Virus record (IMG/VR): IMGVR_UViG_2693429668_000006
Reading direction: 5' to 3' (one strand)
Length of the DNA: 64,000 nucleotides
From: a virus
Lineage: Duplodnaviria; Heunggongvirae; Uroviricota; Caudoviricetes
Made by a program: the position numbers and the translations under genes. Positions 1 to 6,089 of the stretch are shown piece by piece (the stretch's first letter is position 1; every line of letters begins with the position of its first letter). Below the pieces are notes generated by a model. It was given only the letters and a program-made list of their open reading frames with translations, searched no databases and was not told where the DNA came from.

Positions 1-2469
1 AGAAACGGAGTGTGATTTATTGAACTGATAGGCTCCGTTTTTCTCAAATGCGGTCCAGATCTCCTTCGCTTTCATCTCTGATAGCCCTGGATGTGACGCT
101 GTAACGCGTACTGCGTTTATAGGTAGTTTTGCGCCGTGCTCAAGTGCCTCTTCGACAGTTTTCAGAGTTCCGTCTTCGCATTTAAAATGTTCCGCACGGT
201 GAATGCGCTGTGTAGTGCCATCTTCCAGCTCAACGTCTATCCAGCCAGCTTGAGCCTGAACGATGAACTTCTCGCCCATGCTCTTCATTTTTTCCATGTT
301 CTTCTTACCGATTGCGGAACGCACAGCGTCAGCTTCAGCCATTGTGAAGCCGGCAAGCAATCGAGTCGCGTTCATCGTCTGTTCCTGATAGAGAATCACG
401 CCATTTGTTTCCGCGGTAAGTTCATCAAGAACGGGGTGTAATGATTCCGGCGTCATAAAGCCTTTGGCGACAGAAACATAGTCATCCAACATGCCTGATT
501 GAATTGGCCCCGGCCGGAAGAGCGCAGTTGTAGCGACGACCGTTTTAAAGCTCATTGGCTCAATTCCACCACCTAAATCTTTAAGCAGCTTGCGCATTGG
601 GCCTGATTCAAGCTGGAAAACACCTTGAGTGTACCCAGCAGCAAAACCATCCAGCACCTTGCGATCTTCAAGAGAAATGGCATCAAGATTGATATCTTCA
701 CCTGTGTTCTCTTTTATGTAGCGTTTTGCACTATCGAGCAAATCGAGAGTTGCCAGGCCAAGCACGTCCAGCTTAATTAGGCCCATAGCCTCGCAGTAAC
801 GCTTGTCAAATGCGATACAACGCGCGTCACCACGGCGCTCAACCGGTGTACGTTCTGTCAGAGGAACACCTGCTACGATCATCCCTGCCGCATGTCTACC
901 AAAGCCACGCATAAGGCTTTGTAACTTGCAGGCTGCATTGAATGCATCAGGATATTTTGTTGCGTATTTGTCGAGACTTGCCAGTTGTTCGCGCAGTTCT
1001 TCCAATGGAAGGCTATCATCCTCAGCGTTCTTCAGTTCTTTTGATACCGCCATATCTGCGGACTCCACACCATAAATACGAGCGGTGTCACGTAGTGCAG
1101 AGGCTGCGCCCAGGTAGGTGAAGTTCGGAATGCCTGCAACGTAATCTTCGCCGTAGCGTTCATTCAGATACTCGATCACCTCATGGCGACGTGCCTGGCT
1201 GAAGTCCAAATCCGCATCTGGCAAGTCGAGACGCTCAGGGTTGATGAAACGTTCAAACAGAAGACCGTGACGGATAGGGTCGACGTTGGTTATGCCTATG
1301 CACCATGCCACCAAAGAGCCAGCGGAGGAACCACGACCAGGCCCGACAGGAATGCCAGTTTCACGGCTGTGATTCATCAGATCGCGTACCATCAGGAAGT
1401 AACCACAAAATCCCAGGCGAGTAAGCGTGTCCATTTCGTACTTAAGTCGCTCAACATAAACCCTGTTCTCAGAAGCCGGTGGTGTGTATCCAAACTCTTT
1501 TGTGGTAAGACGTTTACGCAGCCCTGCAACAGCCAGTTTCATCAGCGTTGCAGGTTCGTCGTCTGCCATCTTGGGCAGTGCTGGTGGCAATTCATGCCAG
1601 CGCCATGTACAGGCTTCGATAATGGAGTCCTGCGTTGTTGAGGCCATTGCAGCTGTTACCGGCACATCCATGCGAACGGAGAAGGCTTTAAGCGCCTCAA
1701 GGAGATGGCGGCGACCATTGACGGCGTTATCTCGCTGGTGGGGTATACGCAGACGATGCGGCTGGTCGATTTTTATGTTGTTCGTAACCATGTGCGCAAT
1801 GTCTTTAATGTCTGCATCGTCGATCGATTCGTAATAAGCGGGATAGAACGCTACTGGCTCTATTTTCAGTGCGCTGGCTACTTTCATCGCTCGGACGTTA
1901 ATCTGGTCGTAGAATGGGGTAGGGTGCGGATAAACCACGCTATAGAAGTTGTCTTTCCCGCCCGCTGTAATCAGTGAGCTTATGATTTTTGCAAAATCGT
2001 TGCGTTGGAACACGCTACCGATGTCGGAAGTGAGCAGGATGATGTTGCCTTTGGCATATGTAGAAACCAACTGTTCGAGCGAGAGACGCGGTACAAAGTA
2101 GAACTGTTCTCGTGTGTTGGCCACCGTCATTAGTTCGCAGATGTCGCGATATCCTTGCTCATTTTTAATTAGAGCGGTAAACGAGTAGTTACGTCCCCGC
2201 TCTAATGATTCCATACATCTCATAGATTCTTTAGCAAGTTTAGCCCGGTGCTCGTATGTGGGATCATCAACGATATTTAGTTTCACACCACAAATAACCG
2301 CCATGTCGTCACCAGCGGCACGTTGTAGTGGAATAACACTCGCAATATTCATGCTATCTGCTGAAATTACAGCGGTGTAGCCAGCTTCTCTGGCAATCTT
2401 CACCGCGTTTTCTGCTTTTAGAGCCGACTCCCCAAGTGAGAAGTCAGTTCGAACCATCAGTGCTTTCAT
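1..2469 (-). CDS. dnaE: DNA polymerase III alpha subunit (DnaE-like), N-terminal ~820 codons; gene continues beyond window start
   Basis: Minus-strand frame open from ATG at 2469 (AAGG about 9 nt upstream) to position 1; absent from ORF track because there is no in-window stop. Translation contains Pol III alpha signatures GFCGYFLMVRDLMNHSRETGIPVGPGRGSSAGSLVAWCIGITNVDPIRHGLLFERFINPERLDLPDADLDF, GVFQLES and FNKSHS. Confidence 0.85.
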   Translation of the reverse strand, partial: MKALMVRTDFSLGESALKAENAVKIAREAGYTAVISADSMNIASVIPLQRAAGDDMAVICGVKLNIVDDPTYEHRAKLAKESMRCMESLERGRNYSFTALIKNEQGYRDICELMTVANTREQFYFVPRLSLEQLVSTYAKGNIILLTSDIGSVFQRNDFAKIISSLITAGGKDNFYSVVYPHPTPFYDQINVRAMKVASALKIEPVAFYPAYYESIDDADIKDIAHMVTNNIKIDQPHRLRIPHQRDNAVNGRRHLLEALKAFSVRMDVPVTAAMASTTQDSIIEACTWRWHELPPALPKMADDEPATLMKLAVAGLRKRLTTKEFGYTPPASENRVYVERLKYEMDTLTRLGFCGYFLMVRDLMNHSRETGIPVGPGRGSSAGSLVAWCIGITNVDPIRHGLLFERFINPERLDLPDADLDFSQARRHEVIEYLNERYGEDYVAGIPNFTYLGAASALRDTARIYGVESADMAVSKELKNAEDDSLPLEELREQLASLDKYATKYPDAFNAACKLQSLMRGFGRHAAGMIVAGVPLTERTPVERRGDARCIAFDKRYCEAMGLIKLDVLGLATLDLLDSAKRYIKENTGEDINLDAISLEDRKVLDGFAAGYTQGVFQLESGPMRKLLKDLGGGIEPMSFKTVVATTALFRPGPIQSGMLDDYVSVAKGFMTPESLHPVLDELTAETNGVILYQEQTMNATRLLAGFTMAEADAVRSAIGKKNMEKMKSMGEKFIVQAQAGWIDVELEDGTTQRIHRAEHFKCEDGTLKTVEEALEHGAKLPINAVRVTASHPGLSEMKAKEIWTAFEKNGAYQFNKSHSVS

Positions 2470-6089: not shown

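What the first reader, a model, noticed from the sequence alone, without database searches (positions are those of the whole stretch)
2444..6089. CobS/CobT-like AAA+ ATPase and vWA pair inside the replication module, with extreme acidic linker
A MoxR/CobS-type AAA+ ATPase (2650-3885) and a CobT-like vWA protein (3981-6089) form a chelatase-like pair, though no cobalamin pathway is present. The vWA protein carries a ~130-aa D/E/S-rich low-complexity segment (about 5050-5450). Such pairs occur in several large phages with unknown function, possibly as an ATP-driven remodelling machine. A conserved promoter-like palindrome (3947-3964) sits between the two genes, suggesting separate regulation.
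Basis: partly seen in the sequence, partly recalled or inferred. Interest (0 to 1): 0.5.

Follow-up and report, generated by a model that had tools for sequence, protein, structure and literature searches.

The report
Phage CobS/CobT-like ATPase–adaptor pair
An E. coli phage-plasmid carries a well-known but functionally unsolved gene pair that looks like the motor of the vitamin-B12 cobalt chelatase, yet almost certainly does something else, most likely ATP-driven remodelling or cutting of a protein when phage DNA replication starts.

Summary
Window 2650-3885(-) encodes a 411-aa MoxR/CobS-type AAA+ ATPase. Window 3981-6089(-) encodes a 702-aa CobT-type protein with an N-domain, a ~155-aa acidic disordered linker and a vWA/MIDAS domain. 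Both lie next to dnaE in the replication module of an SSU5-like phage-plasmid (98% identical to phage Cyrano).

The pair is already annotated and has been described in the literature, so it is not new. It is not an orthologue of the cobaltochelatase subunits:
- NCBIfam equivalog scores are 85 and 74 bits, against cut-offs of 559 and 759.
- No CobN is encoded in the window.
- The adaptor keeps an intact zincin HExxH motif (143 of 150 diverse relatives; 0 of 78 canonical CobT).
- The ATPase carries a Ros/MucR-like zinc-finger extension.
- Gene order is reversed relative to the canonical locus.

The block cobT-cobS-(sigma)-4-Cys protein-dnaE is conserved in every relative of this phage clade that I examined. 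Unrelated mobile elements also place the pair among replication or recombination genes.

A 30%-identical ATPase, Vcrx089 of IncC plasmids, is an experimentally shown anti-type-I-restriction factor. My best reading is an early-expressed ATP-driven remodeller, possibly a protease, acting on a DNA-associated client. The client is unknown.

The intergenic palindrome is real, but it belongs to a genome-wide motif family (10 copies in the window).

The parts
3981..6089 (-). CobT-like adaptor gene, 702 aa: N-terminal zincin-like domain, acidic disordered linker, shaft-like segment and vWA/MIDAS domain
   Evidence: Pfam CobT 1.8e-27 and CobT_C 5.7e-83. PHROG 1576, 7e-300. AlphaFold pLDDT 85.4. Profile match to solved CobT 9uka_G, 1.7e-63.
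5394..6089 (-). CobT_N domain (aa 1-232): helix, three strands, then a helical bundle with an M48-like gluzincin fold
5856..5870 (-). HEVAH (aa 74-78), a zincin HExxH motif; the candidate third ligand lies in NALEDVFIER (aa 103-112, window 5754-5783)
   Evidence: HExxH is present in 143 of 150 diverse representatives. H74, E75, H78, N103, E106 and D107 are at least 90% conserved; D73 and E111 are invariant. 0 of 78 canonical CobT have the motif; they read RGLGD-SMALR at that position.
4950..5423 (-). Acidic, Ser-rich disordered linker (aa 223-380); AlphaFold-disordered core at 5079-5378
   Evidence: D+E 31%, S+T 27%, net charge -36. pLDDT below 50 at aa 238-337. Sequence and length are hypervariable among SSU5-like homologues. 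Canonical CobT also has a ~90-aa disordered linker.
4584..4703 (-). Basic segment (aa 463-502, RNRVQFIPGQRRGRIHGSS...) aligned with the CobT 'shaft' that enters the CobS ring
   Evidence: The alignment to Brucella CobT covers shaft residues 373-413. The role of the shaft is described. That this segment acts as a shaft here is an inference.
3987..4580 (-). vWA domain (aa 504-701) with MIDAS motif DLSGS (aa 511-515, window 4545-4559)
   Evidence: D511, S513, S515 and D633 are invariant in 147 sequences. Foldseek top hits are the NorD vWA (6e-9) and the MDN1 MIDAS domain.
2650..3885 (-). CobS-like MoxR-class AAA+ ATPase gene, 411 aa
   Evidence: AAA_5 2e-15. PHROG 249, 2e-106. Solved CobS 1.8e-25. 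Walker A at aa 175-182, Walker B D241-E242, sensor-1 N288, Arg finger R312 and sensor-2 R367 are all present.
3793..3834 (-). C18-x2-C21-x4-H26-x4-H31 motif in the ~140-aa N-terminal extension that canonical CobS lacks; a Ros/MucR-like C2H2 zinc finger
   Evidence: The motif aligns with CxxCGxxxHxxxxH in relatives. Pfam ROS_MUCR is the top hit in 6 of 8 N-termini of relatives (best 29.3 bits, cut-off 25.4). The window protein itself reaches only zf-C2H2_6 at E 0.098.
3949..3962 (.). Palindrome TAAGTA-AC-TACTTA in the cobT-cobS spacer, with a -10-like TATATT 14 nt downstream on the minus strand
   Evidence: 10 copies in the window against 0.07 expected. Conserved in SSU5 and in 72 of 77 related loci. 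The flanks are shown.
2444..2647 (-). Conserved 4-Cys small ORF (67 aa from the GTG start; GCFG-x12-C-x2-C-x5-C). It begins 2 nt after the cobS stop codon and overlaps the dnaE start by 26 nt.
   Evidence: PHROG 6337, 2e-44. SSU5_051 matches at 1e-42. The motif forms the N-terminus of the 171-226-aa proteins that sit at the same position in 5 other lineages. No Pfam family matches.
1..2469 (-). 5' part of the phage dnaE (DNA polymerase III alpha) gene, which runs off the window start
   Evidence: Cyrano CYRAN_49 and the PGAP dnaE annotation. The N-terminus MKALMVRTDF was read.
6188..6400 (-). 70-aa ORF directly upstream of cobT; positional counterparts of 54-76 aa occur in relatives
   Evidence: PHROG 2627, 9e-41. 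Similarity to the positional counterparts is weak. Whether it belongs to the unit is uncertain.

Best explanation
What it is. The two genes encode a mobile-element branch of the CobS/CobT family.
- The motor is a MoxR-class AAA+ ATPase. It probably forms a hexamer and carries an N-terminal Ros/MucR-like zinc finger.
- The adaptor has an M48-like zincin domain with an intact HExxH...E site, a long acidic disordered linker, a basic shaft-like segment, and a vWA domain with a complete MIDAS site.

How it probably works. This part is inferred by analogy with the solved CobSTN, NorQD and CbbQO machines. The adaptor docks on the ATPase ring and inserts its shaft into the pore. The MIDAS site grips an acidic residue of a client protein. 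ATP hydrolysis then remodels the client. In most members of the family the zincin site may also cut it.

What the client is not. It is not the cobalt chelatase subunit CobN. None is encoded here. By established knowledge, not tested with these tools, E. coli has no aerobic cobalamin pathway.

When it acts. The genes are tightly packed and probably co-expressed with a 4-Cys protein and the phage DnaE replicase, and they are not listed among the genes expressed in the lysogen. The machine therefore most likely acts early in the lytic cycle, at or on DNA.

My committed guess for the client is a host DNA-bound obstacle to incoming or replicating phage DNA, such as a type I restriction complex. The precedent is the homologous IncC plasmid ATPase Vcrx089.

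Shown: domain architecture, motif conservation, synteny, non-orthology to the chelatase. Inferred: complex formation, remodelling, proteolysis, timing, identity of the client.
For: Family and architecture.

All AAA+ catalytic motifs and the MIDAS residues are intact or invariant.

Not the chelatase:
- TIGR01650 scores 84.8 bits against a cut-off of 558.55, and TIGR01651 scores 74.4 against 759.05.
- The window has no CobN-sized ORF other than tail proteins.
- HExxH is present in 143 of 150 relatives but in 0 of 78 canonical CobT.
- Canonical gene order is cobS then cobT; here it is cobT then cobS.

DNA and replication context:
- The block ligase-...-cobT-cobS-(sigma)-4-Cys-dnaE occurs in SSU5, Rhizobium phage RHEph10, Pseudomonas phage hairong, an Acinetobacter phage-plasmid and three metagenomic contigs.
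- In ICP2 the pair sits next to primase, helicase and polymerase.
- In the T4-like cyanophage Syn33 it sits between gp46 and gp45/44/62.
- In IncC plasmids it sits with ssb-bet-exo.
- The ATPase extension matches the ROS_MUCR zinc finger in relatives.
- The cobS stop, the 4-Cys ORF and the dnaE start lie within a few bases of each other or overlap.

Lysogeny: the Cyrano transcriptome table lists the repressor and morons, but not CYRAN_47 or CYRAN_48.

Functional precedent:
- Vcrx089 (AAA_5 plus CbbQ_C) is 30% identical over 285 aa, E 8e-28.
- With Vcrx090 it protects IncC plasmids from type I restriction on entry into the recipient.
- Deleting the two genes raises EcoKI restriction 906-fold and EcoBI restriction 424-fold in E. 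coli.
- The same IncC gene cluster (transcript shown only as far as vcrx094) holds a CobT_N-plus-vWA protein with HEAAH.
Against: - No experiment exists for this pair or for any phage CobST.
- The ATPase is as far from Vcrx089 as it is from canonical CobS (30% identity to each). The tree is star-like and unresolved.
- The demonstrated partner of Vcrx089 is Vcrx090, not the vWA protein, and the window has no Vcrx090 homologue. The IncC vWA gene was not flagged in that Tn-seq screen.
- About 5% of relatives, including hairong and the Acinetobacter phage-plasmid, have lost HExxH. Proteolysis therefore cannot be essential to the core function.
- The window's own zinc-finger match is below threshold.
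- Synteny within the DnaE-phage clade may reflect vertical inheritance only.
- PADLOC gave no relevant hit, and no anti-defence library was available to search.
Confidence: 0.5

Rival explanations
1. Replisome or recombination-machinery maturation factor. The client is a phage protein: the adjacent DnaE (for example metal loading of its PHP domain) or the 4-Cys protein. The pair would assemble or metallate it, as NorQD, CoxDE and CobST do for their metalloenzyme clients.
For: cobS, the 4-Cys ORF and dnaE lie within a few bases of each other or overlap. The 4-Cys protein and DnaE follow the pair in 7 of 7 lineages of this clade. MoxR/vWA systems are typically metal-centre maturation chaperones. 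In the cyanophage the pair adjoins the clamp and clamp-loader genes.
Against: The pair also occurs with unrelated polymerases: family A in ICP2 and gp43-type in T4-like phages. It occurs in IncC plasmids with no replicase nearby, so a client specific to DnaE is not parsimonious. The 4-Cys protein is truncated to 67 aa in SSU5-like elements. This reading does not explain why HExxH is conserved.
Confidence: 0.25
2. Auxiliary metabolic gene. The viral CobS/CobT replace or boost the motor of the host cobaltochelatase by hijacking host CobN, raising cobalamin supply for nucleotide synthesis.
For: Pfam, NCBIfam and PDB best hits are CobS and CobT. This is the published hypothesis for viral cobST clusters. 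Some hosts of related phages (Rhizobium, Pseudomonas) make B12 aerobically; this is established knowledge and was not tested here.
Against: Scores are 6- to 10-fold below the equivalog cut-offs. No CobN is encoded in the window. E. coli, Salmonella, Klebsiella, V. cholerae and Acinetobacter lack CobN (established knowledge). The region is carried by 245 of 5426 complete E. coli genomes, always on plasmids. HExxH is kept in phage types but lost in all 78 canonical CobT. The genes are not listed among those expressed in lysogeny. Placement is always among replication or recombination genes.
Confidence: 0.07
3. Virion-assembly chaperone and processing protease, as proposed for the MoxR plus metallopeptidase-vWA pair of T4-like jumbo phages.
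For: The published proposal, and the precedent of a MoxR-vWA system needed for tail development in an archaeal virus. The HExxH domain could process structural proteins.
Against: In every context examined the pair lies in the replication or recombination module, not among head or tail genes. IncC plasmids, which make no virions, also carry a related pair.
Confidence: 0.05

Closest known systems
Aerobic cobaltochelatase motor CobS and adaptor CobT (Brucella and Pseudomonas denitrificans CobNST; cryo-EM preprint 10.64898/2026.07.21.739949)
   Same: Both have an AAA+ CobS-type ATPase with all catalytic motifs. Both adaptors combine an M48-like N-domain, a disordered acidic linker, a shaft region and a vWA/MIDAS domain. 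The invariant Asp (D73 here, D80 in Brucella) that contacts CobS is kept.
   Different: Identity is 30% or less and equivalog scores are far below the cut-offs. HExxH is intact here and replaced by S-M-x-x-R in canonical CobT. The ATPase has an extra ~140-aa N-terminus with a zinc finger. Gene order is reversed. There is no CobN client.
Viral cobST cluster / phage 'MoxR plus metallopeptidase-vWA' pair (PHROG 249 plus 1576; cyanophage cobS plus 'peptidase'; PMC8651126, PMC7824862)
   Same: This is the family the window pair belongs to. It shares the architecture, the HExxH...LED.xIE motif, the acidic linker, the MIDAS site, and adjacency in the order cobT then cobS.
   Different: The SSU5-type clade adds the Ros/MucR-like finger, the 4-Cys gene and linkage to dnaE. 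The published functional proposals (CobN hijack, virion assembly) do not fit this element.
Vcrx089-Vcrx090 of the IncC/SXT host-defence-evasion operon
   Same: Vcrx089 is a CobS-like AAA_5 ATPase, 30% identical at E 8e-28. It is carried by a mobile element among recombination genes, and a CobT_N-vWA protein with HExxH lies in the same IncC gene cluster (transcript shown only as far as vcrx094).
   Different: The shown partner, Vcrx090, has no homologue here. The ATPase and the vWA gene are not adjacent in IncC. Vcrx089 lacks the N-terminal extension. The anti-type-I-restriction phenotype is shown only for the plasmid genes.
NorQ/NorD, CbbQ/CbbO, RavA/ViaA (MoxR AAA+ with vWA adaptor)
   Same: All follow the motor-adaptor-client logic. 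The vWA model is structurally closest to the NorD vWA (Foldseek 6e-9) and to the midasin MIDAS domain. The ATPase matches CbbQ and NorQ chains.
   Different: Those adaptors have no zincin domain. Their clients are known metabolic enzymes.

Membership tests
Cobaltochelatase subunits CobS/CobT (NCBIfam equivalogs TIGR01650/TIGR01651) | Score above the curated equivalog cut-off | tested here: not met
   CobS scores 84.8 bits against 558.55. CobT scores 74.4 bits against 759.05.
Cobaltochelatase subunits CobS/CobT | A CobN catalytic subunit and a corrin pathway available as client | tested here: not met
   No CobN-like ORF is in the window; all ORFs over 1000 aa are tail proteins. Absence from the E. 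coli host rests on established knowledge and was not tested with these tools.
Cobaltochelatase subunits CobS/CobT | CobT architecture: M48-like N-domain, disordered linker, shaft, vWA with MIDAS | tested here: met
Cobaltochelatase subunits CobS/CobT | N-domain is a pseudo-peptidase (RGxGD-SMALR helix, no HExxH) | tested here: not met
   The window has HEVAH. 0 of 78 canonical CobT have HExxH. The column mapping comes from hhalign.
MoxR-class AAA+ ATPase with vWA adaptor | AAA_5 ATPase with intact Walker A and B, sensor 1, Arg finger and sensor 2 | tested here: met
MoxR-class AAA+ ATPase with vWA adaptor | Adjacent gene encoding a vWA domain with a complete MIDAS site | tested here: met
   DLSGS at aa 511-515, with a conserved T and D. 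These residues are invariant in 147 sequences. The two genes are 95 nt apart.
MoxR-class AAA+ ATPase with vWA adaptor | Physical complex and ATP-dependent remodelling of a client | not testable with these tools
   This needs co-purification, cryo-EM, or a multimer structure prediction.
Viral cobST cluster (PHROG 249 plus PHROG 1576) | Full-length matches to both phage families, with the genes adjacent in the order cobT then cobS | tested here: met
   2e-106 over aa 11-410 and 7e-300 over aa 5-702. The same order occurs in SSU5, RHEph10, hairong, ICP2 and Syn33.
Zincin (gluzincin, M48-like) metallopeptidase | HExxH plus a downstream Glu ligand, conserved across the family | tested here: met
   H74, E75, H78 and E106 are at least 90% conserved, and E111 is invariant. 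About 5% of relatives have lost the motif.
Zincin (gluzincin, M48-like) metallopeptidase | Catalytic-domain fold | tested here: inconclusive
Zincin (gluzincin, M48-like) metallopeptidase | Zinc binding and peptide-bond hydrolysis | not testable with these tools
   This needs biochemistry.
Vcrx089-090 anti-restriction module | Vcrx089-like ATPase together with a Vcrx090 partner | tested here: not met
   An ATPase homologue is present at E 8e-28. tblastn finds no Vcrx090 in the window.
Vcrx089-090 anti-restriction module | Protection of incoming DNA from type I restriction | not testable with these tools
   The phenotype is known only for IncC plasmids.
Ros/MucR C2H2 zinc finger | Match to Pfam ROS_MUCR above its gathering score | tested here: inconclusive
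   The window N-terminus has no ROS_MUCR hit, only zf-C2H2_6 at E 0.098. One homologous N-terminus (L249) passes at 29.3 bits and five others are sub-threshold top hits. The motif aligns across relatives.

The most novel reading that the evidence does not exclude
The phage and mobile-element CobS/CobT pair may not be a cobalamin gene at all. This would include the 'cobS' counted as a core auxiliary metabolic gene of marine cyanophages. On this reading it is a DNA-tethered, ATP-driven adaptor-protease that evicts or destroys a host DNA-bound defence complex, such as type I restriction enzymes, at the onset of replication. The acidic linker would act as bait, the MIDAS site as grip, and the zincin site as blade.
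Probability: 0.25. Interest if true: 0.8.

Novelty: already known. Interest (0 to 1): 0.4.

Why it matters
Viral cobS and cobT are among the most widely reported 'metabolic' genes of phages. They are routinely read as evidence that viruses boost vitamin B12 synthesis, and nobody has tested this.

This element offers a clean test bed. The pair sits in an E. coli phage-plasmid present in about 4.5% of complete E. coli genomes, in a host without the aerobic cobalamin pathway, so any phenotype cannot be cobalt chelation.

Four features point to a role in DNA replication or defence evasion: the retained protease motif, the zinc-finger extension, the fixed linkage to replication genes, and the experimentally shown anti-restriction role of a homologous plasmid ATPase. 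If confirmed, this would change how a whole class of virome 'AMG' annotations is read. It would also add a new type of energy-dependent anti-defence machine. As a sequence feature, though, the pair is already catalogued.

Tried and rejected
- A single-sequence PDB search with the N-domain found nothing meaningful. A profile was needed.
- A Pfam scan of 31 N-domains found no peptidase family, only CobT.
- PADLOC gave no relevant hit for the four genes. A DrmE match at 5.5e-4 lies over the low-complexity linker, and I dismissed it.
- The neighbour-joining tree of CobS-like ATPases was star-like and its bootstrap values were unreliable after re-rooting. I use only the distances.
- The sigma-70 and terminator scans of 2000-7200 found no more sites than shuffled sequence.
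- The 4-Cys protein has no Pfam family.
- A literature search for the expression timing of cyanophage cobS returned nothing usable.
- The first viral-contig scans returned only close SSU5-like relatives. Diversity came from the representative search, the phage tblastn searches and the contig look-ups.
- I rejected the idea that the acidic linker is a special adaptation, because canonical CobT is more acidic.
- I rejected the idea that the palindrome marks cobS-specific regulation.
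Full report
**What the window is.** The region is 98.4% identical over 4.2 kb to Escherichia phage Cyrano (pLF82) and 75% identical to Salmonella phage SSU5. It is therefore an SSU5-type phage-plasmid. The same 3.6 kb occurs in 245 of 5426 complete E. coli genomes, always on plasmids of about 110 kb. Four of these are 100% identical. All genes of the finding are on the minus strand.

**Checking the observation.**
- *ORFs.* They are exactly as reported.
- *ATPase.* The 411-aa product of 2650-3885 matches Pfam AAA_5 (2e-15), PHROG 249 (2e-106, full length) and the solved Brucella CobS (1.8e-25, aa 141-411). 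Walker A, Walker B, sensor 1, the arginine finger and sensor 2 are all present.
- *Adaptor.* The 702-aa product of 3981-6089 matches Pfam CobT (N-domain, 1.8e-27), CobT_C (5.7e-83) and PHROG 1576 (7e-300). A family profile matches solved CobT at 1.7e-63.
- *Acidic segment.* It spans aa 223-380 (window 4950-5423), with D+E 31%, S+T 27% and net charge -36. An AlphaFold model (mean pLDDT 85.4) has pLDDT below 50 at aa 238-337. Among SSU5-like homologues the linker varies freely in length and sequence, while the two folded domains are conserved.
- *Not unusual.* The linker is a family trait. Canonical CobT has a disordered linker of about 90 aa, and it is more acidic than this one.
- *No CobN.* Every ORF over 1000 aa in the window is a tail fibre, central fibre or tape measure protein. 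The remaining large ORFs are portal, ligase, primase and helicases.

**The palindrome.** GATAAGTAACTACTTACC at 3947-3964 is real. Its core, TAAGTA-NN-TACTTA, occurs 10 times in the window at one mismatch or fewer, against 0.07 expected. Each copy lies upstream of a minus-strand gene. These genes include replication genes and also the tail fibre, tail and head genes. The motif is kept in the cobT-cobS spacer of SSU5 and in 72 of 77 related viral loci. Four more distant loci keep both half-sites with a 6-nt spacer. It is a conserved regulatory element of the whole lytic programme, either an operator or part of a promoter. It is not a sign of special regulation of cobS.

**It is not the cobaltochelatase.**
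- *Equivalog scores.* The NCBIfam equivalog models score 84.8 bits (cut-off 558.55) for CobS and 74.4 bits (cut-off 759.05) for CobT.
- *Family size.* A full-library search found 5050 cluster representatives of the CobT-like protein, 510 of them at E below 1e-30.
- *HExxH in relatives.* Among the best 150 (29-61% identity), 143 carry HExxH at about residue 70, within F(L/I)DHEV(A/G)H.
- *Conservation.* In a 147-sequence alignment, H74, E75, H78, N103, E106 and D107 are at least 90% conserved. D73, E111 and the MIDAS residues D511, S513, S515 and D633 are invariant.
- *Canonical comparison.* I fetched 78 canonical alpha-proteobacterial cobT loci. None has HExxH; the homologous helix reads RGLGD-SMALR.
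- *Column mapping.* A profile-profile comparison of the N-domains (90.6% probability, E 1.3e-6) maps H74 to S, E75 to M and H78 to R.
- *Gene order.* The canonical order is cobS then cobT. In phages it is cobT then cobS.

The phage type thus keeps a catalytically competent-looking zincin site that the true chelatase adaptor has lost. About 5% of relatives have also lost it, among them Pseudomonas phage hairong and an Acinetobacter phage-plasmid. Proteolysis therefore cannot be the indispensable part of the function.

**Two further features not in the finding.**
- *Zinc finger on the ATPase.* The ATPase has about 140 extra N-terminal residues compared with canonical CobS. They contain C18-x2-C21-x4-H26-x4-H31. 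In 6 of 8 relatives this region has Pfam ROS_MUCR, a prokaryotic C2H2 DNA-binding zinc finger, as its best hit. One relative passes the gathering score (29.3 bits against 25.4). The window protein itself is sub-threshold.
- *A 4-Cys gene.* A 67-aa ORF (2444-2647, GTG start) begins 2 nt after the cobS stop codon and overlaps the dnaE start by 26 nt. Its motif, GCFG-x12-C-x2-C-x5-C, is conserved as the N-terminus of the 171-226-aa proteins at the same position in five other lineages. It has no Pfam family. Neither Cyrano's authors nor PGAP annotate it.

**Context.**
- *DnaE-phage clade.* The order (primase)-ligase-(variable insert)-small ORF-cobT-cobS-(sigma-70 factor)-4-Cys protein-dnaE-gp32-exonuclease recurs in SSU5, Rhizobium phage RHEph10, Pseudomonas phage hairong, an Acinetobacter phage-plasmid and three metagenomic contigs at about 30% identity. 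This may be one old viral clade.
- *Vibrio podovirus ICP2.* The pair precedes primase, helicase and a family-A polymerase.
- *T4-like cyanophage Syn33.* The 'peptidase' (HEVGH, NVLEDARIEK, acidic linker, DWSGS) and cobS lie between gp46 and the gp45/44/62 clamp genes.
- *IncC conjugative plasmids.* A CobS-like ATPase and a CobT_N-vWA protein (HEAAH) flank ssb-bet-exo.
- *Overall.* CobS-like ATPases occur in 694 phage records, including Staphylococcus and Listeria phages. Nowhere did I find the pair among virion genes.
- *Lysogeny.* In the Cyrano lysogen, the published table of expressed prophage genes lists the repressor and toxin-antitoxin genes but not CYRAN_47 or CYRAN_48. The pair therefore appears to be a lytic-cycle function.

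**What is known.**
- The pair has been annotated since SSU5 as 'porphyrin biosynthesis protein'.
- Liu et al. (PMC8651126) describe a cobST cluster in tailed viruses of eight host orders. They note that cyanophage cobT is mis-annotated as a peptidase, and they propose hijacking of host CobN.
- Iyer et al. (PMC7824862) describe the same architecture in T4-like jumbo phages as a MoxR plus metallopeptidase-vWA chaperone pair, and they propose virion assembly.
- The CobSTN cryo-EM preprint gives the mechanism of the canonical machine. A CobS hexamer holds a CobT shaft in its pore, and CobN is held between the CobT domains near the MIDAS site.
- The most relevant experiment concerns the IncC plasmid ATPase Vcrx089, which corresponds to the AAA family ATPase gene in the L164 locus. 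With Vcrx090 it allows evasion of type I restriction on entry into a recipient. Deleting the two genes raises EcoKI and EcoBI restriction in E. coli 906-fold and 424-fold.
- The window ATPase is 30% identical to Vcrx089 (E 8e-28). It is equally distant from canonical CobS (E 2e-30). No Vcrx090 homologue exists in the window.

**Interpretation.**
- *Shown:* a MoxR-class motor and a vWA/MIDAS adaptor of the CobS/CobT family, with all motor and MIDAS residues intact. The pair is not orthologous to the chelatase, has no CobN, and has a zincin motif. It is tightly linked to the replicase.
- *Inferred from solved homologues:* ring-plus-shaft assembly and ATP-driven remodelling of a client gripped by the MIDAS site.
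- *Inferred from context and from Vcrx089:* early action at DNA. The most parsimonious client is a host protein common to very different hosts, because the phage replisomes differ while the pair is conserved.

I rank the readings as follows:
- anti-defence or host-obstacle removal first;
- maturation of the replisome or the 4-Cys protein second;
- cobalt chelation and virion assembly far behind.

The overall confidence of 0.5 applies to the general statement: a non-chelatase remodelling machine acting in early DNA metabolism. The specific anti-restriction client deserves about 0.25-0.3.

**Verdict.** The feature is already known and widely annotated, often wrongly. Cyrano's record calls the two genes 'dimethylbenzimidazole phosphoribosyltransferase' and 'cobalamin synthetase', a name collision with the unrelated Salmonella CobT and CobS. 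The function remains an open and testable question, and this E. coli element is a good system in which to settle it.

Noticed in passing
window 3949, 12552, 16074, 21440, 27025, 31235, 38158, 44641, 50136, 56930 (14-bp sites): A dispersed palindrome family, TAAGTA-NN-TACTTA, has 10 copies against 0.07 expected. Each copy lies upstream of a minus-strand gene, in both the replication and the structural modules. It is probably the operator or promoter element of the lytic programme. The binding factor is unknown; the HTH repressor at 6652-7038 is a candidate.
   Followed up: partly
window 2444-2647 (-): A conserved 4-Cys small ORF (GCFG-x12-C-x2-C-x5-C) lies between cobS and dnaE and is unannotated in Cyrano and in PGAP records. 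In other lineages the same motif heads a 171-226-aa protein at the same position. No Pfam family matches.
   Followed up: partly
window ~6100-11900: This is a variable segment between cobT and the ligase module. It holds a 70-aa ORF, an HTH repressor, a tyrosine integrase, a glutaredoxin, a 442-aa low-GC ORF (PHROG 18168), a lipoprotein-like ORF and four tRNAs (Ser, Thr, Tyr, Asn). SSU5 has only tRNA-Asn here, and Cyrano differs. An Acinetobacter phage-plasmid also has an integrase, an HTH gene and a small ORF upstream of cobT.
   Followed up: partly
window 21608-23314 (-): A 568-aa ORF in a 35% GC island matches the PADLOC candidate defence protein PDC-S49 (E 2e-21). It may be a defence gene carried by the phage-plasmid.
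   Followed up: no
L001 (Cyrano OV696614) CYRAN_47 and CYRAN_48: The public annotation names the two genes 'dimethylbenzimidazole phosphoribosyltransferase' and 'cobalamin synthetase'. This confuses the chelatase CobT and CobS with the unrelated Salmonella nucleotide-loop enzymes of the same names.
   Followed up: yes
L164 (IncC plasmid NC_022522) 1804-9797: IncC plasmids carry a CobS-like ATPase (the counterpart of Vcrx089 of the host-defence-evasion operon) and, five genes downstream, a CobT_N-vWA protein with HEAAH and a MIDAS site. The role of the vWA protein has not been tested in the papers I read. 844 conjugative plasmids matched the CobT-like query.
   Followed up: partly
L162 (Xanthomonas phage JGB6) 7001-7978: A tblastn match of the CobT vWA domain lies under short CDSs annotated as DNA polymerase III alpha or PHP fragments. 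The record has many fragmented ORFs, so this is probably an assembly or annotation artefact.
   Followed up: no
window 16794-18047 (+): A plus-strand 417-aa ORF (PHROG 8741, function unknown) sits inside the minus-strand replication module. It has a faint PtuA-like AAA match in PADLOC (1.5e-4).
   Followed up: no
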